A stretch of 32,000 nucleotides of DNA from Thermoflexales bacterium. Its GTDB lineage: Bacteria > Chloroflexota > Anaerolineae > Fen-1058. Each line of letters opens with the position of its first letter. Position 1 is the first letter of the stretch. This document shows positions 17,504-32,000 of this stretch, one piece after another. The stretch spans positions 45,320 through 77,319 of the forward strand of contig JBGSPW010000227.1 of assembly GCA_041738395.1 (NCBI GenBank), in the 5' to 3' direction. The position numbers were made by a program, and so were the translations under genes. The notes below the pieces were generated by a model. It searched no databases, was not told the origin of the DNA, and saw only the letters and a program-made list of their open reading frames with translations.

Positions 17504-18851
<1,348 letters not shown>

Positions 18852-18875
18852 CTATTCGAGCCTCGACAATGTCAG

Positions 18876-18985
18876 GTTAGACCGTCATTGTGTTAGACCG
18901 TCATTGCGAGGAGCGCCGTTTGCGACGAAGCAATCTCCGTTCAACCGGGCCTGAGATTGCTTCGCAAACGGCGCTCGCAATGACG
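18876..18985. repeat. Family A long palindrome (about 87-nt hairpin) preceded by a 16-bp tandem duplication
   Basis: The left arm is cgtcattgcgaggagcgccgtttgcgacgaagcaatctc (18899-18937). The loop is 18938-18952. The right arm is gagattgcttcgcaaacggcgctcgcaatgacg (18953-18985), and the arms differ by two 3-nt indels. gttagaccgtcattg occurs twice in tandem (18876-18890 and 18892-18906). Confidence 0.7.
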
Positions 18986-19029
18986 TAAGCCACGGAAACT
19001 AACATTGTTGAGGCACTTACTTCCCGGCT

Positions 19030-19914
19030 TTACAACAACAGCGACGACACCCACTCGCTCAGTCCTTCAATCGTCTGCGGCACGGCCACGTCCCGATAAA
19101 TCTCCCACGTCTCCACGTGCACGCTCGCTTGGCCAGGCTCCAACACACTCAACGGCGCCAGCGTTTCCAGTTCAATGAAGCGATGATTACAGTACAGTTG
19201 GGCGTTGGTGTTGTAATCGGGATGCAGCAACTCCAGTTGCGGATCGAAGCGCTTGAGAAAGAAGGTGCCTTTACGCAAATAGCCCAGCCAGCCGCGCGCC
19301 AGCAGCCCCACTTTGAATTCTTCCTCATCCGGCTGCGCGTCGATCCACACGTAGTCGTCATCGGCAAAGAGCCGCGCATCCTGCCAGGAAGTGTACGGCC
19401 ACAAGACCAACTGCCGATCGGGCCGGTGACGATTGCCGTCCTGCCGGGTGCGCAGCGGTGCGACTGCCAGGCCGCCCAGCGGCAGCTGCGTGATCGACCA
19501 GGCCGCAATCTCGATCGGTTCGGATCGATCGTTGCGCACGGCCTGCCGCAGGGTGAGCGCGGGCCGATCGGGGTGCAGCTGAACCTCGATCGATTTGCTC
19601 ACGCCGGAGCCGATCTCCGTCGGGCGGATCAGCCGCACGCCCGCAGGCAGCTCTTCGACGATCAAGCCGGCGTTGTCCGGCACGTACGATAGTTCCAACG
19701 CTTCCGGCGCTAGCGCCACGCGATGCCCGCCGCGCAAGAAGTATTCGCCGAAGGGCGTGGGCCAGTGCACCTCGGGCACTTCGGCTAGCAAATTTTCCGG
19801 GGAGTCAGCTAAAAACAATCGGACGAGGCGCGGCCCGGCGTCTGCCAGAAAATCCAGCTGCAAGTGATCGTTGGCGATGGAGCGAATGGGCAAACCGTGA
19901 AAGTCAGTCATCAT
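19030..19914 (-). CDS. Hypothetical protein, possibly galactose-mutarotase-like fold (DUF4380-like)
   Basis: 294-aa ORF with core-like GC content. GGHRVALAPE..YVPDN resembles the GGHRLW.APE pattern of mutarotase-like DUF proteins. It lies upstream of the GH1 gene on the same strand. The family call is tentative. Confidence 0.5.
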   Translation of the reverse strand: MMTDFHGLPIRSIANDHLQLDFLADAGPRLVRLFLADSPENLLAEVPEVHWPTPFGEYFLRGGHRVALAPEALELSYVPDNAGLIVEELPAGVRLIRPTEIGSGVSKSIEVQLHPDRPALTLRQAVRNDRSEPIEIAAWSITQLPLGGLAVAPLRTRQDGNRHRPDRQLVLWPYTSWQDARLFADDDYVWIDAQPDEEEFKVGLLARGWLGYLRKGTFFLKRFDPQLELLHPDYNTNAQLYCNHRFIELETLAPLSVLEPGQASVHVETWEIYRDVAVPQTIEGLSEWVSSLLL

Positions 19915-19923
19915 CGTGCTTTA

Positions 19924-20062
19924 ATACTCACTTTCCGATCGGCCAAAAGGGGGTTTTCAGCGTGCCTGAATTCACGTTCAATTCAAGTGCGGCACTGTAC
20001 ATAAGTATTCGCTGCGCTGGAATACGCCAAAAACTCACATTCAGCGAGCGGAAAATGAGTAT
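19924..20062. repeat. Imperfect 18-bp inverted repeats bracketing a low-GC 139-bp spacer at the core/island junction
   Basis: atactcactttccgatcg (19924-19941) matches the reverse complement of cgagcggaaaatgagtat (20045-20062) at 16/18. The right arm abuts and overlaps the stop codon (20062-20064) of the RCK-RyR gene. Confidence 0.4.
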
Positions 20063-21834
20063 CAAGGAACTCGTCCGCTAACACCATTCTCTTGCGGAAT
20101 GATCTGGTAACCGGCTCGACTCAGAAAAGATGGAATGCCGCGGACTGCCGTACGGTTTTTCTCTCTTTCGGCCTCGGGCAGCGCATCCCAGTCCACCAGG
20201 TGGGGATGGGTTCGAGCGGCTAGATCTTTCGGGCCAAGGGCGTAGCGCCAACCGTCGTTCTGCCTGTCCTGGCACCACAGCTGGTGTTCCAGCTGGGCCA
20301 TGCGCTCCAGCTCAGCCAGGGAGAATTCAAGCGCCGGTGAATCCCAACCGATCAGCGGGACCAGAGTATATCCGCCCTCTTTCAAGACCTGATTGATATG
20401 GTCTACCCATTGGTAATTCGCTTTCCGATACTGTTCGTCCAGCTGTGCCCAGGGTTGCATTGAAGGATCAGACGGCACAGCAGTGCCCGTTTTCATCTGC
20501 TGCTGAACATATTCTTCGTGAGCCGCCCGGGCGAGGACATCGTGGGTGGTATCGTTCAGCAGGTCGGGCGTACAGGTGTGATCGAGATACCCGAAAGCGT
20601 ACAGATTCTGGTAGGTTCCCCGGTCATTTTTTCGGTCCCCCAATAGCCGCGCCAGCCCGCTTTGTTCGGCCATGCGGATCACGATCGGAATGCCGCTGTT
20701 TGGCCGCTGGCGCAACAGAACCAATCCGGCATGTAAGCCAAGTGAGTCATTGTCCACACAGATATAAACGTGATCGATCCCCCGTTTGCCTGGAGCCGGG
20801 GAGAGATATGCGCCACTTTCAAACTCGGGAGAATGGATTTCTATCTGGTGCGGAATCAACTCACAGGCCTGTGCCAACTGTGGGTAGCGAATATAGAGCG
20901 ACTCGACCTTTCGCAGCGCGTAACGATCGATGATCGTCACTTGTAAACGACTGGACTTATCCGGTCGTTGGTCCCACCAACTCCGCGCCGTGTGTAACAC
21001 CAGACTTTCGCCCATGCGTCCGAGTCCCACCACCAACAGATGGGGAACAACCCCGGTCTGGACCAACTCATCGCGCCAGGCCGGATGTTCCTGCAACAAC
21101 CGACGCGCCCCACGCTCAAACACATTGAACAGCTCCAGCCGGAAAGGTCCCCCTTCCAAGGTCGCTTCCTGCTCACGCAGTAGCGCACACAGCTGAGGAT
21201 CAGAGACGTGAATCAAACACGGCAACGGCTCAACCCGGCGGTCTCGCACTATCGCCTGGACACTGAGCGCAATTTCGATGTTAAGGCCATCGTTGTCGCA
21301 CACCGCAAACAGGCCGCGCGCACGCTTGACGCCAGCCCGCAACAACAAGGCGGAGGTGGTCGCATCGCCCGGCAGGACAAACAGCCCTAGCGCGTGACAG
21401 GCAGCGATCCAACTGTTCTTCTCATCGCGCTCGATCACCACGACCCTGGCGCCTTTCTTCCGAAACTGCTGGGCCAGCAGAAAGCCCTTGCGGCTGAGAC
21501 CGCAGATGATGATGTGCCCGCGCAGGCGGCGCAGCCGGGCCGCGTCGATCTGCTGGCGAAACAAATCCAGCAGGACTTTCACCACCGCCAGGCCGGTCAG
21601 GAAGGGAACGGCGAAGCGGGCCAGGTTCAGTTCCAGCGGCAGGGGCGGCGTGACCGCGCCAGAATTCATCGGGATCAATTGCAGGGTCAGATAAAACGAA
21701 TCGGCCAGCGAATAGGGCAGCTGATTCCAGGTGGCATACCGGGTAAAGCCCACCAGCCCGGCGGTCAGGGCCAGCATCCAGAGAATCCCTAGGCCGAGCC
21801 ATTGGTATTTTTGCCAGATCTTTAACTTGTGCAT
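20062..21834 (-). CDS. Membrane protein: 2-TM channel-like N-terminus + tandem RCK/TrkA-N Rossmann domains + two C-terminal RyR (ryanodine-receptor) domains
   Basis: 590 aa. The TM helices are WLGLGILWMLALTAGLVGF and FAVPFLTGLAVVKVLLDLF, with a re-entrant-like segment between them (SFYLTLQLIPMNSG, no TVGYG). The Rossmann motifs are HIIICGLSRKGFLLAQQF..VVVIERDE and HLLVVGLGRMGESL. RyR-type repeats occupy the last 160 aa (about 20065-20544): LARAAHEEYV...GGYTLV and AQLEHQLWCQDRQNDGWRYALGPKDLAARTHPHLVDWDALPEAEREKNRTAVRGIPSFLSRAGYQI. Confidence 0.75.
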   Translation of the reverse strand: MHKLKIWQKYQWLGLGILWMLALTAGLVGFTRYATWNQLPYSLADSFYLTLQLIPMNSGAVTPPLPLELNLARFAVPFLTGLAVVKVLLDLFRQQIDAARLRRLRGHIIICGLSRKGFLLAQQFRKKGARVVVIERDEKNSWIAACHALGLFVLPGDATTSALLLRAGVKRARGLFAVCDNDGLNIEIALSVQAIVRDRRVEPLPCLIHVSDPQLCALLREQEATLEGGPFRLELFNVFERGARRLLQEHPAWRDELVQTGVVPHLLVVGLGRMGESLVLHTARSWWDQRPDKSSRLQVTIIDRYALRKVESLYIRYPQLAQACELIPHQIEIHSPEFESGAYLSPAPGKRGIDHVYICVDNDSLGLHAGLVLLRQRPNSGIPIVIRMAEQSGLARLLGDRKNDRGTYQNLYAFGYLDHTCTPDLLNDTTHDVLARAAHEEYVQQQMKTGTAVPSDPSMQPWAQLDEQYRKANYQWVDHINQVLKEGGYTLVPLIGWDSPALEFSLAELERMAQLEHQLWCQDRQNDGWRYALGPKDLAARTHPHLVDWDALPEAEREKNRTAVRGIPSFLSRAGYQIIPQENGVSGRVP

Positions 21835-21889
21835 GCGACGATTTTAGACTCCTTGCCAGGCGGCGTTCAGCCGTTAGTGTGAGAATAGC

Positions 21890-22180
21890 ATGATATACGC
21901 CGCTGTCGAGCGAGAAATGCTATCCTCCGCGCGTGAATTGGAATTCGTGCATGTGCGGATTTCCCCGCACCGGCCCTGTACCAATGGCATCGTCGAGCGC
22001 CTGGTCCGCACCGTGAAAGAGTGGCTCGAAACCCACTCGTGGAGCAGCCCCGAAGACTTGCAGGCGTTGCTGGCCGAGTTCATCACGGACTATAACGACC
22101 GCCCACATCAAGGGGCCGAACTGGACGGATTGTCTCCCAACGAGCTCGCCCGGCGGCTCGCTGGCTGTTCAACATGTTAG
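21890..22180 (+). pseudogene. Truncated DDE (rve-type, IS481/IS3-like) transposase remnant, C-terminal part only
   Basis: The 96-aa ORF contains ..HRPCTNGIVERLVRTVKEWL..FITDYNDRPHQG.., which is the last catalytic-Glu region of the integrase core. The upstream D,D part is missing because the fragment begins 55 nt from the RCK-RyR gene start. I did not identify terminal inverted repeats. Confidence 0.7.
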
Positions 22181-22709
22181 CGAACAATACAATAATCGAT
22201 CAGTTGTTGCAGCACCCACTGCTGGATGGCCGCAAATTATCCCCAGGCAACAGTGGTAGCACCCTCATTGTGTTGGGTGTCGGTCTTATCGCTACGTTGC
22301 TCGTCGTATTGGCTTATGGTCTCAGCTTGCTGTACACACGCCTTTTGCCGTTCGACATCGGCCAGGCGACACTGTTCGCACTGAGCGCCATCATCGCGGT
22401 GACGGCGCTCGTTTGGCGCTGCGCTCACCTTCCACGTCGGTCTGGATGAATCTGGCCGTGCCACGATCGAGCTCGTTGACCAGGCGTGCTATAGCGTCCT
22501 GTCCGGCACGTTGATTGATCTCGGCCATCACGGCGCGCACCAATCGCTTATTTGTGCTTCAGGGTCTCAAGAAGTCGCTGGGCGGTTGTCTCTCATTCCG
22601 ATCAAGAACGAGTCGTGCTTAAGTGTCGCGGGCATATCTGTTGCCTCTTTAGCATAGTTTAAGATCTCTCAAGGTCCGTTTGCCCTTGTGCTTTGTCGGC
22701 CTCTGCTCA

Positions 22710-25700
22710 CTACTTGCTTTCTGGCAATGCTTCGCACGTTTTCCGATACGGCTCATTCCCAAGATACTGCTTCCATTCCGCTCGCGTCAGGTTGCGATTG
22801 GCAATGCGGCATGCGCTTGCTAGCCACGATCTAATATCAAGATCCCACAAGATGACGGCATAAAAATTGGCTGAGGAAGCCAGCCATCTGCCATCAGGGC
22901 TAAAGGCAATGCTGCCTACACCAACCTGACCAAAGAGTGGCGTGGTGAACTGAGCAGGAGATTTGTGATCAGAGATATCCCATAGCGCAATGGCCCCATA
23001 GTCATCCCCACGCGAAGCCAAAGTCTTGCCGTCAGGGCTGAGTGCAATGGGAGCACTGCCGGCAAGCGCCACGCCGAGTTGGACCGGCAACGTCGGTGTA
23101 GAAATATCGTATAAAAGAATGTCGTTGCCGGCTACCAAAATCAATGTCTTGCCGTCGGGGCTCAACAGGATATCAACCAGCGGTCCCTTCAATCCAGATA
23201 GCGACGCATTGAGATACGGGGGATCGGAAATCTTCCACAATTGAACTTTGCTTTGGTTACAGACCATGCCGAAGTCAGCGCACCCACCCACGACTAATAA
23301 CTTACCATCAGGACCAAAGGCGACCTTTGATAATCCGAGTGTATTACTGGAAATCGGCGCACCCAGTTGGATGGGTGATTCAGGGTCGGAAACATCCCAT
23401 AGAACTAGATTGCTAAATGTGGCGAAGTTCATTGTATTCCACCACACCAGTGTCCTCCCGTCCGGACTGAATACAACTTCTGGCCAATCGCCACCGTTGG
23501 GTATCGTGACAGAAAATGGCGTACCAAGTTGAATCGGAGTTCGAGGATTAGAAACATCCCATAGGACTATGACAGCCACTTTTCCGCGTCTGCTCCATGC
23601 CAATATTTTTCTATTGGGGTCTAGAACAATGCTGTCACCGTGTTCAACCCTGAGAGGTTCTTTAGAAAGCAATATATCAAGCTGGACAGGAGTCTGGGAA
23701 TTAGAGACATCCCGGAGGACGATGGCGTTGTCTTTGACGCTCAATGCCAATATCTCGCCATTGGAGCCAAAAGTTATCTTGGAGTCAGAAGGGAGTTCGC
23801 CAACGAGAACGGGCAAGCGAAGGACAGAAACGTCCCACAGGTTTATATGGGCCGTGCTGCCTGACACCAATGTCTTGCCGTCGGGACTGAAAGCAAGATC
23901 TCCTACACGCTCTTCGGGACCGAAAACATGTACAACAGACGAAATAGACAAAGGTGACCGGTAATCGGAAATGTCCAACAAAGCAACGGTGTAGTTGCCG
24001 CCGCCTAAGGCTAGCATCTTCCGACCAGGACTGAAAGCCGCGCCTCCAAAGCCTGAAGGGCCGGAAATTGTTGCACCAAGTCGGGCAGGCGATTTGGGAT
24101 TGGAAATGTTCCACTTGGCAAGAGTGCCGTCACCCCCCACAAGTAATGTCTTACCATCAGTAGCAAAGGCAACAGTTACCACAGGAAATGTATGGGAGAG
24201 TGGGCTGCCGATCGGGATAGGCAAACCGGGGTCGGAGGTATCCCACAGGATAACCGATTTGTCACTACTTCCAGAGGCCAGAATTTTTCCATTGGGACTA
24301 AAGGCAACGCTCGTCACAGCAGCTGCATGTCCAGAAAGGGTGGTGCCGAGAAGAGCTGGTAACACAGGACGAGAAACGTCCCATAAACGAATTTCACCTG
24401 AGCGAGGTTCGTTAGGGCTACCTCCTTCATCAGCTTTTCCTCCGCTGCCAGAGGCCAGCAGCTTGCCATCCGGGCTGAAAGCAACACTTTCTACTGGAGC
24501 AGAATGACCGGTGAGTGGCGCGCCGAGAAGAACCGGCGAAGAAAGATTAGAGACATCCCACAGATAGGTTTGGCCTAGCTTAGGGAAACGAGAGAGATCG
24601 AGTTTCACATTACCGCCTGCGGCCAACAATCTTCCGTCAGGGCTGAAGGCAACATCATAAACCGGTCCAGGAGGGCCGGAAAGTGGTTCACCCAAAGGCT
24701 GGCGACTGACAATATCCCACAACTGAACCTCTCCTTGAGAACAATAGTATTTAACAAAATTTACTGCACACCCTCCTGAAGCCAATGTTCTACCATCGGG
24801 GCTAAAAACAAGGCTATAGACACCGGCTTTATGGCCTGCGAGTGGTGGGGCAAGCTGAACGGGCAACGATGGATTGGAAATATCCCATAGATAGATCTTG
24901 CCCTGGGCACAGCCACCCGCTTGATCATCAAACTCGCTGCAAATGCCCATTGCCAGCATCTTTTCATCGGGACTGAAAGCGAGACCGGACACCTCAAGTC
25001 GCTGCGACGTTCGCTCCGACGCGCTGGATGCGGGAGAGCGCAGAAAGGTTACAAGACGTGGGCTATGCTGTAAGGCGGCCAGCAAACTGCTGCGCGCCTC
25101 GATGGTATCCATCATTCGGTAGGCTTCCGCGCCCAACAGCAAAGCCAAGTCAAGTTCTTTGTCCAAATGCGAAATCGCTTGCACTGATAGTTGGCGAGAG
25201 AGCGCAGTTTTGGCTTGTCGCTGGGCTTCATCGCGTTGTTCCACAGCCCGAGTGCTGGCGGCTTGAGCTGTGGAGGCATTTTGATTTGCGCGAATGGCAT
25301 TCTGGTTGGATTGCAATCCAAAGAAAACCGCAATCATAGCGGCGAGAAGCGCCGCTGCGCCAGCAGCGGTGATAATTCGGTTGCGCGTGCGCAGACGCCT
25401 GGCCGACTGCTGTTGCTCCTGGAGTTTTTCGGCGGCTTCACGGTCAGCTTCCTGCCGGCTGGTCAGCACATACTGACGCTGTAATGGCGTGGGTTGGGGA
25501 GTTCTTTCCACATCGATTCCGGCCAAGCGCTGCTCCGCCTCCAGCAAATCGGTGCCACGCAAAAGAAAACTGGCGTCTCGTGTCTTTTTCTCCCACTCTA
25601 CTGCACGCATCTGCAGCCGGGTATGCACTTTAGTCCATTCCAAGTCGGTCTGAATGGCGACGAGCAGGGTGTCAAACGCCTTCTGATAATCATCCTGCTG

Positions 25701-26036
25701 CTCGCGGAAGAAAATCCAATTGAGCCGGGTGACTGTTTCGGGCGCGGCGCGCGGTTCCACTTCCCGCGGCACAATGGGGATGAGGCGCTTGCCATTCTGT
25801 GCAGCGTGGGCAATCTCTTTGCTGCAAATTTCCGAGCTAATCGAATCGGGGCTGACGACGAACACAAAGGTATTGGCCTGCTCGATGGCCGTATAGACTT
25901 CGGCCAGCCAGTCGGCGCTGGGGGGAATATCCTGCCAGTCAATCCAGGTGTCCAGTTGGCGCTCTTGGAGCAACTGGTGCAAAACGCGGGCAAAGGCAAT
26001 ATCTTTACGAGAGTAGGAGATAAAAACGTCGCTCAT
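22710..26036 (-). CDS. TIR domain / single TM helix / WD40 beta-propeller repeat protein (about 15 blades)
   Basis: 1108 aa. The N-terminal TIR is MSDVFISYSRKD..TFVFVVSPDSISSEICSKEIAHA (Glu74 codon at 25815-25817). A conserved helical module follows (HTRLQMRAVEWEKKTRDASFLLRG..). A basic stretch RRLRTRNR precedes the TM segment IITAAGAAALLAAMIAVFFGL (about 25311-25376). Repeated AFSPDGK/R.LASG..(I/V).LWD blades follow. I found no P-loop. Confidence 0.9.
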   Translation of the reverse strand: MSDVFISYSRKDIAFARVLHQLLQERQLDTWIDWQDIPPSADWLAEVYTAIEQANTFVFVVSPDSISSEICSKEIAHAAQNGKRLIPIVPREVEPRAAPETVTRLNWIFFREQQDDYQKAFDTLLVAIQTDLEWTKVHTRLQMRAVEWEKKTRDASFLLRGTDLLEAEQRLAGIDVERTPQPTPLQRQYVLTSRQEADREAAEKLQEQQQSARRLRTRNRIITAAGAAALLAAMIAVFFGLQSNQNAIRANQNASTAQAASTRAVEQRDEAQRQAKTALSRQLSVQAISHLDKELDLALLLGAEAYRMMDTIEARSSLLAALQHSPRLVTFLRSPASSASERTSQRLEVSGLAFSPDEKMLAMGICSEFDDQAGGCAQGKIYLWDISNPSLPVQLAPPLAGHKAGVYSLVFSPDGRTLASGGCAVNFVKYYCSQGEVQLWDIVSRQPLGEPLSGPPGPVYDVAFSPDGRLLAAGGNVKLDLSRFPKLGQTYLWDVSNLSSPVLLGAPLTGHSAPVESVAFSPDGKLLASGSGGKADEGGSPNEPRSGEIRLWDVSRPVLPALLGTTLSGHAAAVTSVAFSPNGKILASGSSDKSVILWDTSDPGLPIPIGSPLSHTFPVVTVAFATDGKTLLVGGDGTLAKWNISNPKSPARLGATISGPSGFGGAAFSPGRKMLALGGGNYTVALLDISDYRSPLSISSVVHVFGPEERVGDLAFSPDGKTLVSGSTAHINLWDVSVLRLPVLVGELPSDSKITFGSNGEILALSVKDNAIVLRDVSNSQTPVQLDILLSKEPLRVEHGDSIVLDPNRKILAWSRRGKVAVIVLWDVSNPRTPIQLGTPFSVTIPNGGDWPEVVFSPDGRTLVWWNTMNFATFSNLVLWDVSDPESPIQLGAPISSNTLGLSKVAFGPDGKLLVVGGCADFGMVCNQSKVQLWKISDPPYLNASLSGLKGPLVDILLSPDGKTLILVAGNDILLYDISTPTLPVQLGVALAGSAPIALSPDGKTLASRGDDYGAIALWDISDHKSPAQFTTPLFGQVGVGSIAFSPDGRWLASSANFYAVILWDLDIRSWLASACRIANRNLTRAEWKQYLGNEPYRKTCEALPESK

Positions 26037-26154
26037 ATGGTGATTTTCTCGCTATTTTTGCGGCGAATGGCTTATTTCTGGAGCGCAATGCGCTCCAATG
26101 TCGAAATGACGAACATACGGAAAATGCGGGATGTTTGGGCCAGAACAACCTCTC

Positions 26155-29100
26155 CTATTGAGCCAGCTGGCACGTGGCGTGGTAAACTGCCTGATCGAAA
26201 TAGAGGGACCATTCTTCCTGGGTGAAATTGCGGTTGGCAATCTGACAGACGCGGGTCAGCCAATCTTGCGGGTCCAGGGACCACACAGTCATTTTGCTAA
26301 TCTCAGAGGTATACAGAAACCGGCTGTCGGGGCTGAAGCCCAAGACTGTGACGCTGGAGTCTGGGTTGCGGATGGGCTGGCCGACAGGTTGCCGTTTTTG
26401 AACGTCCCACAAGGTAATCAGACCGACCCCGCAGCCTGAGCCGTTGCCACTATCGCAGCCGACGCTGACCGAATAGCGCCCATCCGGGCTTCTGAGCCAT
26501 GCAACGGTCAGAGTGTTCATCAGCGGATCGGGCTGCCCGCTCTCGATATCCCACCAGATGTCTTGCTGTTTGAGAGACAGGTAGGTGCTAATGCCGATCT
26601 TTTTCCCGTCGGGGCTGAATTCCAGCAGTTTGACACTCCCGTTCGTGGAGCCATCAAACGGCTTGCCGATCGTTTTGCCGGTCTCCATATCGTACATTTC
26701 GATCCGATAAGTCTGGCAGCTTTGAACTCCCTTGATGCATCCGGCGGCAGCCAGGGTTTTCCCGTCCGGACTGAAGGCCAGCGTGATGAACCCCGGGTCG
26801 AGAGTCATCGATATCTGGTGGACAACCTGGCCGATGGCTGGATCCCAGACCAGGAAAGTCCCATGTGGTCCGTCACTGACCATCCAACGGTCATCCGGGC
26901 TGAACTTCAGATTCAGTGCCCACCCGTCGATCATAACCGGCGCGCCAATCGACTGTCGGGTGGCAACGTCCAGGAAATGCATCCGGGTGGATTGGACGTT
27001 GCCGATTAGCTCTGTGTAGACCAGAACCTTACCGGAGTGGCTGAGGAAAATACGGGAAATATCGACATCCGGTGCGGTCATGAAAGGCTGCCCGGCCGGT
27101 TTGTTTTTCTCGACATCCCAAACAACGATATCTTTCGTGGAAGCAGCGACAACAATTGGTTCTTGCGGGGCAGCGGGGTCAAAGCCAACCTGCCAGTAGC
27201 TCCACGGCGAGGGATCGCTGTTGTTGAAAACTTTCGCCACCGGCTGCCAGGAAAACAGGTTCCACAGGTAGATCTGACTTTCTTTGCAGTCCATATAGAG
27301 CCCGGCTACAGCGCATGAGCTGCTGGCTAAGAAACGGCCATCCGGGCTGATGGCCAGCGCATTGACGAATCGGGTTGTTTGGTAAGGCTCCAGAGTGAAG
27401 GCGTCCCTGGAATTCGTAGCGGAGTGAATCGCAAGTGGAGATCCGAAACTAAGGCTGGCCAAAATCTGGTCGCTACCCGACCGGCTGAAGAGCAGGCTGT
27501 CAATCTCTGATTTCTGCGTGTAGGAGGCTGCCTGCTTCCAGTTTGCCACGTTAATGATGTGGACGATCCCCGCCGCCTCCCCAGCAGCCAGCAGCTCGCC
27601 ATCGGCGCTCACGTCGACCGAGACGATCGCGCTGGTTGTGCCTTCAATCGGATGCGCCTGCATGCTTCCATCCGGCAGGTTCCAGGTTTTTACTTCTCCC
27701 TTCTGACAAAAATCCATTTTGGATTTACCAGTTCCTTGGGTTCGCAGGCCGGCACAGTCGCCGGCGTACAGACGGTCACTCTGCGGACTGAAGGCCAGGT
27801 TATGCATCTGCGTTCCCACCCCTTTAAGTGCCACCCCAGGTGGGTTAGCGATGCTCAAATCCCAAAGAACGATTCCTCCCGTGTCGCACAACCCGCCAGG
27901 CATGGAAAACCCATGGCACCCACCACTGGCCATGTATTTCCCGTCCGGGCTGATGGCCACCATTCCGCTGCTGTTGGCGAAAGCCGGCAGAGGAATGGGG
28001 GCCGGCTGGCCTCCTGCAGATAGATCGAAGCGATAAATCCGATCTCCGGCGATGGCAGCAAACAGAGCCGACCCATCCGGGGTAAAAGCCAACCCGGTCG
28101 GCCGGCCTCCGCCGGCAGCCAGGACCCGGCCCATCTGCCCGCTGGCAAAGTCGTAGAAGACGATCTTATTTTGCAGGCAGGCATCATGCTTCTCATCGCG
28201 CTGGGCGCATCCCGCCACCGCAATCCACTTTCCATCCGGCGAAAAGGCCAGTGCAGTGATTTGCTCCGGATAGCGGTCGATGCGTGCCAGTTGAGGACTC
28301 TGCTCCAGTGCCAGGAGCAAACTACTGCGAGCGTGATAGGTATCGGCAGCCAGGTACGATTCGGCAGCCAGGAGCATCGCCAGGTCAAGATGATGAGTCA
28401 ACTGGGTCTGGGACTGGGTCGACAGCTGGCCAGACAGGGCTATCTTCGCCTGGCGTTGAGCCTCGTTGCGCTGTTCCACGGCCAGTGTGCTGGCGGCCTC
28501 GGCGGTAGCCCGCTGGTTGATCGCATTGGCCTCGGCCGTGGCGCGAGTGAATGATTCGGCCACGGCTGTCGAGCGGGCATAGGACTCGGCCAGGGCATTG
28601 GCCTGTGCCAGATTGCTTTGAACCAGGGCGACAATTGCTAGCGCCACAGCAATCACAAATCCGATCGTCACCGCACCGAGCGTGATACGCTGACGCCGGT
28701 CGGCATCCCGACGGCCGGCTAGCAGGTACTGCTTTTGCAGAGTGGTGGGCTGGGGTTCTTTTTGCCCGGTGGCCTGCGCCAGCCAAGTCTCGGCGTCGCG
28801 CAATTCCCGCCCACGCAGCAGAATGCTGGAGTCACCCTGTTTATTTTCCCATTCCAGGGCGCGCACCTGGAGGCGGGTGTGGACTTTCACCCAGGCCAGG
28901 TCGGTCTGAATGGCAGTCAGCAGTTTATCGAAGGGCTGCTGGAAGTCGGATTCTTGCGGTGAAACGTTCTCGCGTGCGGGGAAGAAGATCCAGTTTAGGG
29001 CTGCAATATCGGGCAGCAGTTCTTCAGACTTGATCTCCGGGTGGATAACAATAGGGACTAGCCGCTTGTGGTTATCGATGGCGTGCTGCACCTCTTTGCT

Positions 29101-29313
29101 GCACACTTCTGAGTTCTTGGAATTGTGGCTGACGATATATACAAAAGTATCTGCCGCTTCGATGGCGTGGTAAATCTCGCTGAGCCAATCAGCTGAAGGG
29201 GGGATGTCCTCCCAGTCGATCCAGGTTTCAAGGTTTCTAGCTTTAAGGGCATCGACCAGGATGTGAGCAAAGGCCACATCTTTGCGGGAGTAGGAGATAA
29301 AAACGTCGCTCAT
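26155..29313 (-). CDS. TIR domain / single TM helix / divergent WD40-like beta-propeller repeat protein (about 14 blades), paralog of 22710..26036
   Basis: 1052 aa. The TIR is MSDVFISYSRKDVAFAHIL..NSEVCSKEVQHA (Glu74 codon at 29092-29094). It is about 60/90 identical to the downstream paralog over the first 90 aa by hand alignment. The TM segment is ITLGAVTIGFVIAVALAIVALV (about 28618-28686). The start overlaps the stop of the upstream gene (ATGA at 29310-29313). Confidence 0.9.
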   Translation of the reverse strand: MSDVFISYSRKDVAFAHILVDALKARNLETWIDWEDIPPSADWLSEIYHAIEAADTFVYIVSHNSKNSEVCSKEVQHAIDNHKRLVPIVIHPEIKSEELLPDIAALNWIFFPARENVSPQESDFQQPFDKLLTAIQTDLAWVKVHTRLQVRALEWENKQGDSSILLRGRELRDAETWLAQATGQKEPQPTTLQKQYLLAGRRDADRRQRITLGAVTIGFVIAVALAIVALVQSNLAQANALAESYARSTAVAESFTRATAEANAINQRATAEAASTLAVEQRNEAQRQAKIALSGQLSTQSQTQLTHHLDLAMLLAAESYLAADTYHARSSLLLALEQSPQLARIDRYPEQITALAFSPDGKWIAVAGCAQRDEKHDACLQNKIVFYDFASGQMGRVLAAGGGRPTGLAFTPDGSALFAAIAGDRIYRFDLSAGGQPAPIPLPAFANSSGMVAISPDGKYMASGGCHGFSMPGGLCDTGGIVLWDLSIANPPGVALKGVGTQMHNLAFSPQSDRLYAGDCAGLRTQGTGKSKMDFCQKGEVKTWNLPDGSMQAHPIEGTTSAIVSVDVSADGELLAAGEAAGIVHIINVANWKQAASYTQKSEIDSLLFSRSGSDQILASLSFGSPLAIHSATNSRDAFTLEPYQTTRFVNALAISPDGRFLASSSCAVAGLYMDCKESQIYLWNLFSWQPVAKVFNNSDPSPWSYWQVGFDPAAPQEPIVVAASTKDIVVWDVEKNKPAGQPFMTAPDVDISRIFLSHSGKVLVYTELIGNVQSTRMHFLDVATRQSIGAPVMIDGWALNLKFSPDDRWMVSDGPHGTFLVWDPAIGQVVHQISMTLDPGFITLAFSPDGKTLAAAGCIKGVQSCQTYRIEMYDMETGKTIGKPFDGSTNGSVKLLEFSPDGKKIGISTYLSLKQQDIWWDIESGQPDPLMNTLTVAWLRSPDGRYSVSVGCDSGNGSGCGVGLITLWDVQKRQPVGQPIRNPDSSVTVLGFSPDSRFLYTSEISKMTVWSLDPQDWLTRVCQIANRNFTQEEWSLYFDQAVYHATCQLAQ

Positions 29314-29903
29314 AGGGTAACTTTCTCGCTATTTTGGCGGCGTGGTTTTTCTGCCGGAAAATTCTCGTAGGTCACACTGGCCTGGATTGGCGCCGATGCA
29401 CTCGCCTCCACCACGCTGGGTTGATAGTTTGGGGCATAGACCCAGGCGATCGGCAAGCCCCGCTGACGCGCCTCTAAAACTATTTGCCCGGTGCCGCCCT
29501 GGCCTCTTGGCGGCTGGCCATCCCAAAGCGCAACGAGCACATCCACCTGATCGAGCATGTAACGCCCGGCGAATTCATAGGCCGCAACGCGCGTTGAACT
29601 GACTGGAAGTTCGATTACCCTGTCAGCGCGCGTCAATAGATCCAGGAATTCCAGCCTTGAATCTTTAGAGAAATCGGTCAAATACTCTTCTTTCTTCAAG
29701 GGGAGCGGCACGACCAGGCGGGTCTCGATCACTTCGAAGGCGCGTTGAACAACCAGTCGGTCCGCGCCGTCCGCCAACGAACTGTAGAGGCGGAATGGCC
29801 CGGCGAACCTCGCCTGGATTTTTTCCAGCACATTATCGACCTGGCGAATAAGCCGGTTCAGGTCGTATAAAACGCGGTGGCCTGTCACGCCGATGTTTGT
29901 CAT
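29310..29903 (-). CDS. Stand-alone SLOG-superfamily (DprA/LOG/YpsA-like Rossmannoid) protein
   Basis: 197 aa with GGTGG upstream of the ATG at 29901-29903. SLOG-like motifs are IGVTGHR at the N-terminus, SLADGADRLVVQ (the GxD glycine-rich loop), and VLVALWDGQPPRGQGGTGQIVLEARQRGLPIAWV (comparable to LOG PGGxGT and DUF2493/YspA patterns). That it is coding is secure; the family call rests on motifs only. Confidence 0.6.
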   Translation of the reverse strand: MTNIGVTGHRVLYDLNRLIRQVDNVLEKIQARFAGPFRLYSSLADGADRLVVQRAFEVIETRLVVPLPLKKEEYLTDFSKDSRLEFLDLLTRADRVIELPVSSTRVAAYEFAGRYMLDQVDVLVALWDGQPPRGQGGTGQIVLEARQRGLPIAWVYAPNYQPSVVEASASAPIQASVTYENFPAEKPRRQNSEKVTL

Positions 29904-29970
29904 CCGCCCACCTTACAAGATTTTTTCAGAAGTGCGATTGTATTGGCGCGTATTCGGTCGTCGGTTAGAA

Positions 29971-32000
29971 TTAGCCTTTGTCAGATCTCGCAATGGCGTA
30001 CCCCGCCCTGGCCAGGATCTCCGGGATGCCGCGCACCAGGTCACGGTCCTTCACCTTCTCTTCTTCAGGCAGCTGCTCCCAGGAGACAAGACATGTGTGT
30101 ATCTTTTTGGCCGCATCAGTTTCGGAGGCATAGACCCAGCCGTCATCGAGTTTGGATTGCATCCAACGTTCGTGTTCCGCCTTCGCCAGCGTCTCCATGG
30201 GTTCACCGGGGAAGTTAAAGGGTGGTTCGTTGCTGCGCGCCGGGATCATGATATAGCCGGCCGCCGCCAGTTTGGCCGGGATATCACGCACGTATAGCCG
30301 GTTCTGCTCCTTCAGGAAGTCGGGCAGCTCCGCATACGAGACGAGGGCCATGTGGGTCTTGAGCGCCTCGTCGGTCTTGGAGCCATACTGGTAGCCGCGT
30401 TTTTTCAGCCCCTCGCAAAAAATCGTGTGATTAGCCTCGGCCAGATCTTCGAGCATCTGCCCTTCCAATTCAACTTGCTGGACCAGGGAGAGGAAGCGTT
30501 TGCCGTCCACGTGCAGGTCGAGCTGCGATTCGGACGGCAGGCAGGAGCGCTCAAAGGCGGTCTTGCCGGTTAACTGGCTCATGGCGAACAGCGACTCGAT
30601 CGAACGCGCGCCATGCCTGTATTGCCCAATCTTCAGCAGGGCGCGCAGCACCCCGCGGTCGATGTTGAGCCATTCCTGCCCGCCGCGTTTCTCGAACAGT
30701 TGAGGCGTGCCGCGCTTCAGGCACGATCGTAACAGGATCGCCCGGCGGATGATAAAGTACGGGTCTTCGCTGTTTCCCTTGACCGGGTTGGGCCCCAGGA
30801 CGTTGATGTAACCCTTGAGGCGGCTGACGAAATCGGGCCCTTTGGCCGACTTGAAGTTCTTGTCGATCCCCTTGTCGAATTCCGCCATGCTGCTACTGGT
30901 CCCGCCGGCGAAGACGAAAATCGAGCGACCGATCGGGTGGTTGATCTGGCCTTCCTGGAATTTACCATCCTGCATGGGAGCCAGGAAGTAGCGCAACCAG
31001 CCGAGCGGCATTTCGCCCAGAGAGGTGTCGAACTCATCCCAGAATACCAGCGGGATCTTGCCACTCAGGCCGACGTCGCGCACTTGGTGGAGGGCAGACA
31101 ATAAACCATCGACGGAATCGAACTGGGACAGGTTGAAAGTGATCGGTTCGATCTGGCCGGGCAGGAGGGATTTGGCCATCTCGGTGACACCGAAGGACTT
31201 GCCTGACCCGGGCGTGCCGAACACCGCGATCGAAAGCGGACGCGTCACCTGCTTTTGTCCGGCATACTCGGCGACCAGGTTGCGGATGCTGCGGTAGCTT
31301 TCGATCTCCTGGCGGTCGACCGTCAGCAGGTTGCCGAACTGTCCCCAGGGCACTCCTTGCAGAGCCACTTCCGGTCCTTCCAAGACGACCTGCATGGCGA
31401 CCTGATCCAGCCCTCCCTTAAATTTGTCTTGCAGGATCGTCCAGAAGCCTTCCGTCAGCGGTTTCTCGGCCGGTTCCCCGGTTTGATGGATGAAGCGCAT
31501 CGGATCCTGGATTGGGGCGACTGTGAACTGTTTCGTCGGCTGGGCCAGAGCGGCCGCGACCTTGACGATGGGGAAAACGAGTTTGGCCTGCGAGGCAGGC
31601 GTGCCCCGTTCACCGTAGCCCTCCAAGTGCAGAATTCGCATGGCCGCCAGGCCAGACTGGATCCCAGACTGGATATCGGGCTGATCGGGCGAGACCATCA
31701 GCTGGCGGGCGATTCCGGCCGTCAGGCAGGTGGTGTAGCCGATCATCCTGCCGGGATAGTCCTTCTCCCACATGTGCTCGATGCCTTTCGGATCGAAGAA
31801 TAGAGAACACTGGAAGGTGGGCTGGTCTTTTCCTTCCTGCCGCGACAGGAGGATCGCCCCGGCAGGCCCAAAGGAAATGATCACGTGGGCGCAGTGCGAA
31901 AGCGAGTTGATACACGGGTTATGCACTAGCTCCCAGAAGACGTCCTGAGCGGTGCGTTCCCAGGAGAGTTCCCGGCTGATCTGGACTTCGCTCAAGCGCA
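29971..32000 (-). CDS. AAA+ ATPase with two C-terminal RyR domains and an N-terminal domain of unknown (possibly degenerate PfkB-like) fold; 5' end probably beyond the window
   Basis: The stop is TAA at 29971-29973. Walker A is GTPGSGKS (31195-31218, checked against the DNA). Walker B is IPLVFWDEFD and sensor-1-like is IFVFAGGTS. The two RyR repeats are in the last 161 aa (about 29974-30456): AEANHTIFCEGLKKRGYQYGSKTDEALKTHMALVSYAELPDFLKEQNRLYVRDIPAKLAAAGYIMI and AKAEHERWMQSKLDDGWVYASETDAAKKIHTCLVSWEQLPEEEKVKDRDLVRGIPEILARAGYAIA. The only in-window start candidate is TTG at 31993-31995, and the frame stays open to the edge. Confidence 0.8.
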   Translation of the reverse strand, partial: RLSEVQISRELSWERTAQDVFWELVHNPCINSLSHCAHVIISFGPAGAILLSRQEGKDQPTFQCSLFFDPKGIEHMWEKDYPGRMIGYTTCLTAGIARQLMVSPDQPDIQSGIQSGLAAMRILHLEGYGERGTPASQAKLVFPIVKVAAALAQPTKQFTVAPIQDPMRFIHQTGEPAEKPLTEGFWTILQDKFKGGLDQVAMQVVLEGPEVALQGVPWGQFGNLLTVDRQEIESYRSIRNLVAEYAGQKQVTRPLSIAVFGTPGSGKSFGVTEMAKSLLPGQIEPITFNLSQFDSVDGLLSALHQVRDVGLSGKIPLVFWDEFDTSLGEMPLGWLRYFLAPMQDGKFQEGQINHPIGRSIFVFAGGTSSSMAEFDKGIDKNFKSAKGPDFVSRLKGYINVLGPNPVKGNSEDPYFIIRRAILLRSCLKRGTPQLFEKRGGQEWLNIDRGVLRALLKIGQYRHGARSIESLFAMSQLTGKTAFERSCLPSESQLDLHVDGKRFLSLVQQVELEGQMLEDLAEANHTIFCEGLKKRGYQYGSKTDEALKTHMALVSYAELPDFLKEQNRLYVRDIPAKLAAAGYIMIPARSNEPPFNFPGEPMETLAKAEHERWMQSKLDDGWVYASETDAAKKIHTCLVSWEQLPEEEKVKDRDLVRGIPEILARAGYAIARSDKG

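What the first reader, a model, noticed from the sequence alone, without database searches (positions are those of the whole stretch)
22710..32000. Operon-like AAA+/RyR - SLOG - TIR - TIR array: candidate undescribed NAD-derived nucleotide signalling / conflict system
Seen in the sequence: four co-directional minus-strand genes with short or negative spacers.
- AAA+ ATPase with 2x RyR (stop at 29971), then a 67-nt gap.
- SLOG-like gene (29903 to 29310), then an ATGA overlap at 29310-29313.
- TIR-TM-WD40 gene (29313 to 26155), then a 118-nt gap.
- Paralogous TIR-TM-WD40 gene (26036 to 22710).
Both TIRs keep the SxxCSKE helix with the Glu that is catalytic in NAD+-cleaving TIRs (codons 25815-25817 and 29092-29094).

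Established knowledge: bacterial TIRs such as Thoeris ThsB convert NAD+ into cADPR-isomer signals. The SLOG domain of ThsA is the receptor for that signal.

What differs here: the SLOG is a free 197-aa protein with no fused effector. The TIRs are giant membrane proteins. An AAA+ ATPase carrying RyR repeats heads the array. I do not recognise this combination as any named defence system. It is not canonical Thoeris (no SIR2, macro or TM effector on the SLOG) and not Avs/STAND (no NTPase in the TIR proteins).

Inference: TIR is the signal generator, SLOG (and perhaps RyR) is the signal binder, and the AAA+ ATPase and/or a nearby channel is the output.
Basis: partly seen in the sequence, partly recalled or inferred. 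Interest (0 to 1): 0.9.

Follow-up and report, generated by a model that had tools for sequence, protein, structure and literature searches.

The report
TIR-linked RyR/SLOG ATPase and channel system
This is a real, widely conserved and apparently undescribed bacterial gene cluster in which NAD-cleaving TIR sensor proteins sit next to an ATPase and a putative ion channel carrying the ryanodine-receptor "RyR" domain, recently shown in phages to bind cyclic ADP-ribose signals, which points to a new kind of NAD-derived alarm pathway.

Summary
**Observation.** It is confirmed base for base: four co-directional minus-strand genes with 67-nt, ATGA-overlap and 118-nt junctions, and Glu74 in both TIRs.

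**Domain calls.**
- TIR_2 (E~1e-25), WD40 and RyR×2 (E 3e-24) hold.
- The 197-aa protein has no Pfam hit but folds as a YpsA-like SLOG (pLDDT 91).
- The AAA+ call rests on invariant Walker A/B motifs and weak profile hits.

- The ATPase runs off the window. It is 883 aa, with an N-terminal ribokinase/PfkB-like domain.
- A 2TM–RCK–RyR channel-like gene (20062–21834) belongs to the cluster, separated by an IS remnant.

**Conservation.**
- The ATPase→SLOG pair recurs in hundreds of species across more than 10 phyla (median gap 18 nt, 7 fusions).
- 65% of well-flanked ATPase loci carry an adjacent TIR or DUF4062 (TIR-like NADase) sensor.
- These sensor genes are 12-fold enriched near the core (p≈2e-16).

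**Literature and libraries.** A May 2026 preprint shows phage RyR domains bind or cleave 2′/3′cADPR, and its four ligand residues are present here. I found no PADLOC model and no paper describing this system.

**Best model.** A Thoeris-like pathway with RyR and SLOG receptors and ATPase/channel outputs. The mechanism is inferred, not shown.

The parts
29971..32000 (-). 3' 674 codons of an 883-aa protein with the architecture ribokinase/PfkB-like domain, then AAA+ P-loop ATPase, then two RyR repeats forming a Repeat12-like module. The first 209 codons lie beyond the window.
   Evidence: ORF. Full length comes from L001. RyR scores E 2.8e-24. Foldseek matches the N-terminus to ribokinase, PUKI and HldA, and the C-terminus to RyR Repeat12 structures 6uhi and 9l9b. 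More than 5759 homologues were found, and the top 120 are at least 65% identical.
31195..31218 (-). Walker A motif GTPGSGKS (residues 469-476 of the full-length protein).
   Evidence: G, P, G, S, G, K and S are invariant in 52 homologues.
31027..31047 (-). Walker B motif VFWDEFD (residues 526-532 of the full-length protein).
   Evidence: FWDEFD is invariant in 52 homologues.
30238..30459 (-). RyR repeat 1. The ligand positions are H732, F735, H757 and N774, so the acid of the RyDEP catalytic dyad is replaced by Asn.
29989..30198 (-). RyR repeat 2. The ligand positions are H817, W820, H842 and D859, with the same +3/+25/+42 spacing as RyDEP H75/W78/H100/D117.
   Evidence: The RyDEP residues come from PMC13232231. 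H817 and D859 are invariant.
29310..29903 (-). Stand-alone 197-aa SLOG-superfamily protein (YpsA-like) with conserved motifs GVTGHR, SLAEGADR and WDG..GxGGTG.
   Evidence: AlphaFold2 pLDDT is 91. Foldseek matches YpsA 2nx2 (E 2e-7, TM 0.65), DprA, LOG and the ThsA SLOG domain with 3'cADPR. 786 homologues were found. Alignment is A1.
26155..29313 (-). TIR-A, 1052 aa. The N-terminal TIR domain (nt 28972-29304, Glu74 at 29092-29094) is followed by one TM helix (nt 28621-28677) and then WD40 beta-propellers that are predicted to lie outside the cytoplasm.
22710..26036 (-). TIR-B, a 1108-aa paralogue of TIR-A. The TIR domain (nt 25662-26027, Glu74 at 25815-25817) is followed by one TM helix (nt 25320-25376) and WD40 propellers.
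21890..22180 (+). Integrase-core (rve_3) fragment. This IS remnant separates TIR-B from the channel gene and is not a functional part of the system.
   Evidence: E 2.5e-12. In other loci the channel gene directly follows SLOG or TIR.
20062..21834 (-). 590-aa putative ligand-gated ion channel. It has two TM helices (residues 13-31 and 71-92) flanking a conserved loop (D..YLTLQL..(E/N)SGAV), then two Rossmann/RCK (TrkA_N) domains, then a RyR module (second-repeat positions H517, W520, H, N).
   Evidence: TrkA_N scores E 2e-17 and RyR E 1e-15. Alignment is A4. PDB profile hits are to TrkA, GsuK RCK and eukaryotic RyR at E 1e-29. More than 425 homologues share this architecture, and JGI names some of them Kch.

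Best explanation
The cluster at 20062 to beyond 32000 is one multi-gene NAD-derived nucleotide-signalling system, most likely an anti-phage or conflict system, built on Thoeris logic but with different receivers.

**Sensor and signal generator (inferred).**
- The two TIR-TM-WD40 proteins are membrane receptors with cytoplasmic TIR domains and external beta-propellers.
- When triggered, their TIRs, which keep the catalytic-position Glu, convert NAD+ into an ADPR-type signal such as a cADPR isomer.

**Receivers (the domains are shown, ligand binding is inferred).**
- One receiver is the stand-alone SLOG protein.
- The others are the RyR Repeat12 modules carried by the PfkB-like-AAA+ ATPase and by the 2TM-RCK channel-like protein.
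- SLOG works together with the ATPase. The two genes are translationally coupled, and in other genomes they are fused or SLOG takes the place of RyR.

**Output (inferred).**
- Ligand binding opens the channel, giving ion flux and membrane depolarisation.
- Ligand binding also switches on the AAA+ machine, whose substrate is unknown.
- The outcome would be growth arrest or death of the stimulated cell.

In other genomes the TIR sensors are replaced by DUF4062 (TIR-like NADase)-NACHT-WD40/TPR proteins.
For: **Domains**
- TIR, WD40 and RyR match Pfam models.
- The 197-aa protein has a SLOG fold.
- The ATPase has a PfkB-like fold at the N-terminus and a RyR Repeat12 fold at the C-terminus.
- Walker A and B motifs are invariant.

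**Gene linkage**
- SLOG-anchored genome scan: at least 563 species carry a relative. Of 50 loci with a stand-alone or fused SLOG, 40 have the ATPase, 18 the channel, 15 a TIR (12 of them within 500 bp) and 11 a DUF4062 protein.
- ATPase-anchored metagenome scan, 52 loci with at least 2.5 kb of flank: SLOG in 29, channel in 15, TIR in 20, DUF4062 in 18, TIR or DUF4062 in 34, any partner in 44.
- TIR and DUF4062 genes are about 12 times denser within 2.5 kb of the core than further out in the same loci (65 in 404 kb against 7 in 511 kb, binomial p 2e-16).
- The order ATPase then SLOG on one strand holds in 62 of 86 co-occurrences. The median gap is 18 nt, and 7 cases are fusions.
- In L040, L045 and L046, SLOG replaces RyR on the ATPase.

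**Ligand logic**
- Phage RyR-domain (PF02026) proteins bind or cleave 2'/3'cADPR through H75, W78, H100 and D117 (PMC13232231).
- RyR repeat 2 here has H, W, H and D at the same spacing, and the first H and the D are invariant.
- Sister proteins of this SLOG are SLOG+SLATT four-TM proteins, and 21 of 30 lie next to a TIR gene. This matches the 'SLOG and 4TM' predicted Thoeris configuration of 10.64898/2025.12.03.692087.
- DUF4062 is a TIR-like NADase (10.64898/2026.05.01.722283).

**Origin**
- No relative of the ATPase was found in 2.9 million viral contigs, so it is host-encoded.
Against: - No biochemistry has been done on any of these proteins.
- About a third of well-flanked ATPase loci have no TIR or DUF4062 gene within reach. 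The core may therefore answer to signals made elsewhere, or to ordinary metabolites such as ADPR, NAD or ATP.
- RyR Repeat12 of human RyR3 binds plain ATP and ADP (PDB titles), so the ligand need not be a TIR product.
- The AAA+ core is modelled poorly (pLDDT about 40) and reaches only E about 0.1 against classical AAA structures.
- The membrane part of the 'channel' has no profile hit and no K+ selectivity filter.
- The ATPase is unusually conserved for a defence gene: 65-85% identity across phyla.
- The window flanks are housekeeping genes, not a defence island.
- In the Thoeris screen, the 'SLOG and 4TM' relatives did not protect E. coli.
Confidence: 0.6

Rival explanations
1. NADase-effector model. 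The TIR and DUF4062 proteins are the terminal NAD+-depleting effectors of self-contained sensors (WD40, TPR or NACHT), not signal generators. The RyR/SLOG/PfkB-like ATPase and the channel read the resulting ADPR or NAD+ drop as a secondary amplification or checkpoint layer.
For: DUF4062 enzymes were reported to hydrolyse NAD+ to plain ADPR and nicotinamide. In STAND proteins the N-terminal domain is usually the effector (DUF4062-NACHT-TPR/WD40 neighbours). RyR Repeat12 binds simple adenine nucleotides.
Against: The tight operonic coupling to three separate ligand-binding modules mirrors generator-receiver systems. The sister SLOG proteins are fused to SLATT pore effectors beside TIR genes, which is the classical signal-receiver arrangement.
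Confidence: 0.17
2. Signal-clearing or recycling model. The ATPase's RyR repeat 2 is a RyDEP-like glycosidase that degrades cADPR-type signals. The PfkB-like domain and SLOG handle the ribose-containing products. On this reading the ATPase-SLOG pair is an off-switch or NAD-salvage module, and only the channel is the effector.
For: The H817/D859 dyad at the RyDEP catalytic positions is invariant in 52 homologues. Repeat 1 and the channel's RyR carry Asn at the acid position, which looks like a binder rather than an enzyme. The strong sequence conservation is typical of enzymes. NUDIX genes lie near two loci.
Against: Most RyDEP homologues that keep these residues were sponges, not enzymes. The 'GAGD' catalytic motif of ribokinases appears to be replaced by G-Y-T-T-C (the motif assignment is my own reading). 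This model gives no reason for an AAA+ motor.
Confidence: 0.13
3. Physiological, non-immune signalling. The channel and ATPase regulate ion homeostasis or development in filamentous bacteria in response to NAD(H) or adenine nucleotides. The TIR-WD40 receptors would be cell-surface signalling proteins.
For: RCK domains classically bind NAD(H) or ions. The cluster sits among housekeeping genes. It is frequent in Chloroflexota and Actinomycetota, and the ATPase is highly conserved.
Against: The distribution is patchy across more than 10 phyla and includes an archaeal MAG. IS and toxin-antitoxin genes lie nearby. GC content dips across the island. The sensor partners vary from locus to locus. All of these are typical of mobile conflict systems.
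Confidence: 0.08
4. Chance juxtaposition of unrelated genes in this one genome.
For: None beyond the IS remnant that splits the cluster.
Against: The same gene set recurs in hundreds of genomes, with gaps of a few nucleotides and with gene fusions.
Confidence: 0.02

Closest known systems
Thoeris defence systems (type I ThsA/ThsB, and the predicted 'SLOG and 4TM' and SLATT (type VII) configurations)
   Same: A TIR-domain sensor gene sits next to a SLOG-domain gene. The SLOG here is homologous (about 40-50% identity) to SLOG+SLATT proteins that lie beside TIR genes. The inferred logic is also the same: a TIR-made NAD-derived signal is read by a receptor.
   Different: The SLOG here has no fused effector and is coupled or fused to a PfkB-like-AAA+-RyR ATPase. 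RyR domains act as additional receptors, and there is a separate channel-like gene. The TIRs are roughly 1,050-1,100-aa membrane proteins with external WD40 propellers. No ThsA model matches.
RyDEP, the phage RyR-domain anti-Thoeris proteins (PMC13232231)
   Same: Both have a PF02026 RyR/Repeat12 fold and the same four ligand or catalytic positions. The model structurally matches phage RyR-domain proteins.
   Different: RyDEP proteins are small, phage-encoded counter-defence proteins. Here the domain is host-encoded (no IMG/VR relatives). It is fused to an ATPase and to a channel, and it lies in cis with TIR genes.
Eukaryotic ryanodine receptor and TRPM2 channels
   Same: An ion channel carries a RyR Repeat12 nucleotide-binding module (E 1e-29 to RyR1-3). 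A SLOG-type module sits in the same pathway. TRPM N-termini are SLOG/LSDAT domains, which is my own knowledge; an LSDAT_prok hit appears in L082. cADPR or ADPR is the proposed ligand.
   Different: The pore here is a minimal 2TM-RCK protein unrelated to the RyR or TRP pores. The RyR module is C-terminal and single. No Ca2+ selectivity is implied.
Type X Thoeris (TIR plus ion-channel effector, signal unknown; 10.64898/2025.12.03.692087)
   Same: A TIR gene is paired with a predicted ion-channel effector.
   Different: The supplements of that paper contain no RyR, TrkA, PF02026 or PF02254 annotation. Its examples come from Bacillus and Vibrio. Whether the channels are related could not be tested.
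MthK/GsuK/Kch-type 2TM-RCK channels
   Same: The protein has two TM helices around a loop, followed by RCK (TrkA_N) domains. JGI names some homologues Kch.
   Different: There is no TVGYG filter. The conserved loop reads LQL..(E/N)SGAV. The protein also has an extra C-terminal RyR module.

Membership tests
Thoeris (type I/II) | A TIR-domain ThsB-like protein | tested here: met
   TIR_2 scores E about 1e-25. PADLOC ThsB models hit the TIR domains at E 1e-10.
Thoeris (type I/II) | A ThsA effector in which SLOG or Macro is fused to SIR2 or a TM effector domain | tested here: not met
   The SLOG protein is 197 aa, has no TM segment and no second domain. No ThsA model matches in PADLOC or NCBIfam.
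Thoeris (type I/II) | A TIR-made signal activates the effector and protects against phage | not testable with these tools
   This needs biochemistry and phage challenge.
SLOG superfamily | A Rossmann-like SLOG fold with Gly-rich ligand loops | tested here: met
   The pLDDT-91 model matches YpsA, DprA, LOG and the ThsA SLOG domain. GVTGHR and GxGGTG are conserved. One fused homologue gives a weak YAcAr hit.
RyR / Repeat12 domain (PF02026) as in RyDEP | A PF02026 profile match and the Repeat12 fold | tested here: met
   E 2.8e-24 for the ATPase and 1.4e-15 for the channel. Foldseek TM-score is 0.72 to 6uhi.
RyR / Repeat12 domain (PF02026) as in RyDEP | Ligand or catalytic residues H75, W78, H100 and D117 | tested here: met
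   H817, W820, H842 and D859 have identical spacing. H817 and D859 are invariant.
RyR / Repeat12 domain (PF02026) as in RyDEP | A phage-encoded small counter-defence protein | tested here: not met
   No relative was found in the IMG/VR contigs. The protein is an 883-aa multidomain protein in a chromosomal context.
AAA+ ATPase | Walker A and Walker B motifs | tested here: met
   GxPGSGKS and (V/I)FWDEFD are invariant apart from the x and the V/I position.
AAA+ ATPase | A significant match to an AAA profile or fold | tested here: inconclusive
   Pfam AAA and AAA_22 score E 0.01-0.1, below the cut-off. PF00004 is precomputed for a few homologues. The PDB profile search gives E about 0.1 to the AAA ATPase 4d81 and proteasome subunit 7 (Rpt1). 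The AF2 model of this region has pLDDT about 40.
Ribokinase/PfkB family | The ribokinase-like alpha/beta fold | tested here: met
   Foldseek matches PUKI, HldA, ribokinase and KHK at E 1e-7 to 1e-6 with target-normalised TM-score about 0.5. pLDDT is about 90 over residues 10-375.
Ribokinase/PfkB family | The catalytic GAGD / anion-hole motif | tested here: not met
   The corresponding stretch reads G-Y-T-T-C and is conserved, with no Asp. The motif position was assigned by eye, so treat this as provisional.
STAND / Avs | A STAND NTPase (NACHT or NB-ARC) in the sensor protein | tested here: not met
   No NTPase domain is found in TIR-A or TIR-B. DUF4062-NACHT proteins occur in other loci but not in this window.
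2TM-RCK potassium channels | An RCK/TrkA_N domain after a 2TM pore module | tested here: met
   TrkA_N scores E 2e-17. Two TM helices and a conserved loop are present.
2TM-RCK potassium channels | A TVGYG-type selectivity filter or an Ion_trans_2 profile match | tested here: not met
   There is no Ion_trans hit. The loop consensus is YLTLQLxxxESGAV.

The most novel reading that the evidence does not exclude
Prokaryotes have a host-encoded signalling pathway in which TIR or TIR-like NADases make a cADPR/ADPR-type messenger. RyR Repeat12 domains read that messenger on a ligand-gated ion channel and on an AAA+ machine, assisted by a SLOG protein. This would be a bacterial counterpart, and a possible evolutionary source, of the cADPR-RyR and ADPR-TRPM2 (SLOG) axes of animals. 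It would also be the likely natural target against which the phage RyDEP proteins evolved.
Probability: 0.4. Interest if true: 0.92.

Novelty: new variant of a known kind. Interest (0 to 1): 0.82.

Why it matters
**Defence systems.**
- If the model holds, this adds a large family to the TIR/Thoeris-type immune repertoire. There are at least 2,000 clusters at 50% identity, hundreds of species, more than 10 phyla and at least one archaeal MAG.
- The receptor (RyR Repeat12) and the output (a PfkB-like AAA+ ATPase plus an RCK channel) would both be new.

**Origin of the RyR domain.**
- It would give a cellular function to the bacterial RyR domain, which so far is known only from animal Ca2+ channels and from phage anti-defence proteins.
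- It would make a long-debated question testable in a simple system: whether Repeat12 of ryanodine receptors is a cADPR/ADPR sensor.

**TLR-like receptors.**
- The TIR-TM-WD40 proteins have a Toll-like-receptor topology, with the sensor outside and the TIR inside.
- This suggests the trigger could be sensed at the cell surface.

Tried and rejected
**Searches that found nothing**
- Pfam, NCBIfam and PADLOC scans of the SLOG-like protein gave no hit, even at E 10. A profile search of PDB sequences gave only noise. Only structure prediction followed by Foldseek resolved it.
- Sequence and profile searches of the AAA core against the PDB gave nothing or only E about 0.1. The AAA+ clade stays unassigned.
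- The promoter/terminator scan of 19800-32000 found sites at the chance level and says nothing about co-transcription.
- The cluster look-up for the organism name returned no names. The nearest named relatives are Chloroflexota/Anaerolineae MAGs.
- The viral-contig scan for the ATPase gave no relatives.
- One DUF4062 preprint (10.64898/2026.09.04.749371) could not be opened.

**Ideas considered and rejected**
- Canonical Thoeris: the SLOG carries no effector.
- Avs/STAND: the TIR proteins contain no NTPase.
- A phage-borne anti-Thoeris RyDEP operon: the cluster is host-encoded and lies in cis with TIR genes.
- Chance adjacency: rejected by the neighbourhood statistics.

**Literature**
- Searches for RyR+SLOG, RyR domain+TIR, PF02026 and SLATT+ryanodine found no description of this system.
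- The library lacks most subscription-journal papers, so prior description elsewhere cannot be excluded.

Full report

Yes. The ORF listing finds four co-directional minus-strand ORFs at the stated coordinates:
- 29971..31995, still open at the window edge
- 29310..29903 (197 aa)
- 26155..29313 (1052 aa)
- 22710..26036 (1108 aa)

The junctions are a 67-nt gap, a 4-nt ATGA overlap (read directly) and a 118-nt gap. When TIR-B is aligned to solved TIR domains, Glu74 lines up with the Glu of the WCxxEL motif of the NADase Cat1 and of the TLR TIRs.

The two large proteins are paralogues, 32% identical overall and much closer over the first 200 residues. Each has a single hydrophobic helix (residues 213-231 and 221-239) with five Arg/Lys just upstream and at most one downstream. 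This predicts a cytoplasmic TIR and extracytoplasmic WD40 propellers, the topology of Toll-like receptors.

**2. Domain identities**

*TIR, WD40 and RyR.* Pfam gives TIR_2 at E 9e-25 and 5e-26, many WD40/beta-propeller models, and RyR (PF02026) at E 2.8e-24 with two stretches in the first gene.

*The SLOG-like gene.*
- It matches nothing in Pfam, NCBIfam or PADLOC, even at E 10. A profile search of PDB sequences gave only noise.
- It has 786 homologues with conserved GVTGHR, SLAEGADR and WDG..GxGGTG motifs.
- An AlphaFold2 model built on 37 of them has pLDDT 91.
- Its best Foldseek matches are YpsA (2nx2, E 2e-7, TM 0.65), DprA, TM1055, LOG enzymes and the ThsA SLOG domain bound to 3'cADPR. 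The protein is YpsA-like, and one JGI homologue is even named 'YoqJ'.

*The ATPase gene.*
- It is cut by the window end. An identical contig (L001) shows the full protein is 883 aa.
- Its model is confident for residues about 10-375 and 700-883 and poor for 460-620.
- Foldseek assigns the N-terminus to the ribokinase/PfkB fold: pseudouridine kinase, HldA, ribokinase and ketohexokinase, at E about 1e-7.
- Foldseek assigns the C-terminus to the RyR Repeat12 module: Bt-hRyR chimera 6uhi at TM 0.72, and human RyR3 Repeat12 bound to ADP, ATP or dantrolene.
- The AAA+ assignment rests on motifs, not profiles. GxPGSGKS and (V/I)FWDEFD are invariant apart from the x and the V/I position. Profile evidence is sub-threshold.
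- The ribokinase GG motif is kept. What I read as the GAGD catalytic motif is G-Y-T-T-C. This suggests a ligand-binding domain rather than a kinase, but that is inference.

**3. The cluster is larger than the finding**

Downstream of TIR-B lies an rve_3 integrase fragment on the other strand (21890-22180). Beyond it is a 590-aa minus-strand gene (20062-21834) with TrkA_N (E 2e-17) and RyR (E 1e-15) domains.
- It has two TM helices (13-31 and 71-92) with N- and C-termini inside, flanking a conserved loop D..YLTLQL..(E/N)SGAV.
- Two GxGxxG Rossmann/RCK domains follow, then a RyR module.
- Its profile hits TrkA and the GsuK RCK domain, and eukaryotic RyR1-3 at E about 1e-29.
- More than 425 homologues share this architecture, and JGI names some of them 'Kch'.

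I read it as a 2TM-RCK ion channel with a RyR ligand module. The pore function is inferred, because there is no TVGYG filter and no Ion_trans profile hit. Genes further left in the window are ordinary housekeeping genes. GC content falls from about 0.61 to 0.50-0.57 across the cluster.

**4. Conservation elsewhere**

*Individual homologues.* The neighbourhoods of four SLOG homologues already showed the set RyR-ATPase, SLOG, TIR and TrkA_N(-RyR).

*SLOG-anchored genome scan.* A scan of one genome per species found at least 563 species with a relative. The hits span Chloroflexota, Actinomycetota, Acidobacteriota, Ignavibacteriota, Bacteroidota, Armatimonadota, Gemmatimonadota, Planctomycetota, Proteobacteria and others. 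I called ORFs in the 80 returned loci and searched them with HMMs built from the window proteins.

| Class of locus | n | Partners found |
|---|---|---|
| SLOG stand-alone (41) or fused to the ATPase C-terminus (9) | 50 | ATPase in 40; channel in 18; TIR in 15 (12 within 500 bp); DUF4062-NACHT-WD40/TPR in 11 |
| SLOG fused to a four-TM SLATT-like domain | 30 | TIR gene adjacent in 21 |

The SLATT-like assignment rests on weak SLATT_3, SLATT_1 and DUF4231 hits. This second class matches the 'SLOG and 4TM' predicted Thoeris configuration of Yirmiya et al..

*ATPase-anchored metagenome scan.* It returned 79 distinct loci, of which 52 have at least 2.5 kb of flank.

| Partner | Loci out of 52 |
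|---|---|
| SLOG | 29 |
| Channel | 15 |
| TIR | 20 |
| DUF4062 | 18 |
| TIR or DUF4062 | 34 (65%) |
| Any partner | 44 (85%) |

*Statistics and gene order.*
- Using the outer flanks of the same loci as an internal control, TIR/DUF4062 genes are about 12 times denser within 2.5 kb of the core: 65 in 404 kb against 7 in 511 kb, binomial p 2e-16.
- The order ATPase then SLOG on one strand holds in 62 of 86 co-occurrences. The median distance is 18 nt, and 7 cases are fusions.
- In L040, L045 and L046 the SLOG domain replaces RyR at the ATPase C-terminus.
- Four further ATPase homologues on long contigs show the same partners, including one on a contig of a MAG labelled Halobacteriota archaeon.

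*Family size and origin.* The ATPase family has 2,029 clusters at 50% identity with E ≤ 1e-30. No relative occurs among 2.9 million viral contigs.

**5. What the literature adds**

- A May 2026 preprint (PMC13232231) shows that phage RyR-domain (PF02026) proteins, named RyDEP, bind 2'/3'cADPR with nanomolar affinity or cleave them. The residues involved are H75, W78, H100 and D117, and they are conserved in animal RyR Repeat12.
- RyR repeat 2 of the ATPase has H817, W820, H842 and D859 at exactly this spacing. H817 and D859 are invariant in 52 homologues.
- Repeat 1 of the ATPase and the channel's second repeat carry Asn at the acid position.
- The model's RyR part also matches phage RyR-domain proteins in BFVD.
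- DUF4062 was reported in 2026 to be a TIR-like NADase.
- The systematic Thoeris study lists 29 putative effector classes, including SLATT (type VII, signal cADPR), an ion channel (type X, signal unknown) and 'SLOG and 4TM'. Neither its text nor its supplements contain RyR, TrkA, PF02026 or PF02254.
- Full-text searches for RyR+SLOG, RyR domain+TIR, PF02026 and SLATT+ryanodine found no description of a host RyR/SLOG/TIR system.
- PADLOC has no model for the ATPase, the SLOG protein or the channel.

**6. Most likely mechanism**

*Shown by the data.*
- The domain identities.
- The operonic coupling and fusions of ATPase and SLOG.
- The recurrent adjacency of TIR or TIR-like NADase sensors and of the RCK-RyR protein.
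- The retention of the TIR Glu and of the RyR ligand residues.

*Inferred.*
- The TIR-TM-WD40 receptors sense an external or envelope cue and make an ADPR-type messenger from NAD+.
- The messenger is read by the RyR modules and the SLOG protein, and perhaps by the PfkB-like domain.
- The outputs are opening of the 2TM-RCK channel and activation of the AAA+ motor, whose substrate is unknown.
- The result is arrest or death of the stimulated cell.

I give this about 0.6.

*Rivals.*
- The NADases are terminal effectors, and the RyR/SLOG module senses ADPR or the NAD+ drop (0.17).
- The ATPase-SLOG pair is a RyDEP-like signal-clearing or salvage module, and only the channel is the effector (0.13).
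- The system is a physiological, non-immune ion or nucleotide signalling system (0.08).
- The genes are adjacent by chance (0.02, effectively refuted).

*Points against the main model.*
- A third of well-flanked cores have no NADase gene nearby.
- Repeat12 also binds plain ATP and ADP.
- The ATPase is unusually conserved for a defence gene, at 65-85% identity across phyla.
- The 'SLOG and 4TM' relatives failed to protect E. coli.

**7. Comparison with known systems, and novelty**

The cluster works like Thoeris: a TIR generator paired with a SLOG-type receiver. It is not a member of any described type.
- Its SLOG lacks a fused effector.
- No ThsA model matches.
- The RyR-bearing ATPase and channel have no counterpart in PADLOC or in the papers searched.
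- It shares the RyR module with phage RyDEP but is host-encoded and multidomain.
- It shares the Repeat12 module with animal RyRs and the RCK architecture with MthK/GsuK-type channels, but it lacks their pore signatures.

I classify it as a new variant of a known kind: a new, large Thoeris-like family with new receptor and effector modules. Interest is high because it gives bacterial RyR domains a cellular role and links TIR signalling to the two ligand modules (Repeat12 and SLOG) found in animal cADPR/ADPR-responsive channels.

Noticed in passing
window 21890-22449 (+): An rve_3 integrase-core fragment (96 aa) and an overlapping 91-aa ORF with a hydrophobic stretch lie on the opposite strand between TIR-B and the TrkA_N-RyR gene. 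This is an IS remnant that splits the cluster. In other genomes the channel gene directly follows SLOG or TIR.
   Followed up: partly
window 20000-30000 versus 1-19000: GC content is 0.50-0.57 across most of the cluster, lowest over TIR-B (23-25 kb), and about 0.60-0.62 in the housekeeping part of the window. This is consistent with horizontal acquisition.
   Followed up: no
L082:5910-8402; L091:15964-18487: A second RyR-containing architecture was seen. It is RelA_SpoT (alarmone synthetase-like)-TPR-LSDAT_prok (SLOG)-RyR, present as one protein in L082 and split in L091. It sits between TIR genes and a SLOG-SLATT gene in L082 and next to a NUDIX gene in L091.
   Followed up: partly
L040:7946-10540; L045:1104-3842; L046:7979-10549: In these genomes the PfkB-like-AAA+ protein ends in a SLOG domain instead of RyR repeats. 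This suggests SLOG and RyR are interchangeable sensor modules on this ATPase.
   Followed up: partly
P0121-P0240; L092: The ATPase is 65-85% identical among Chloroflexota and other bacterial MAGs, and in a MAG labelled Halobacteriota archaeon. Its SLOG partner is only about 50% identical between the same kinds of genomes. Such conservation is unusual for a conflict gene.
   Followed up: no
L091:18541-18963; L092:7031-7522: NUDIX hydrolase genes lie within a few kb of RyR-domain genes in two loci. Some members of this family degrade ADP-ribose. This may be incidental.
   Followed up: no
L093:11628-12398; L024:10573-11346; L010:9349-10125; L045:4019-4807: A short form of the channel-like protein (about 256-263 aa, 2TM plus one TrkA_N domain, no RyR) replaces the 590-aa form in several loci.
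   Followed up: no
L007:6491-7190; L004:13001-14086: HigB/HTH toxin-antitoxin genes and DDE transposases lie inside or beside some clusters, and one transposase interrupts the channel gene in L004. This is consistent with mobile, island-like behaviour.
   Followed up: no
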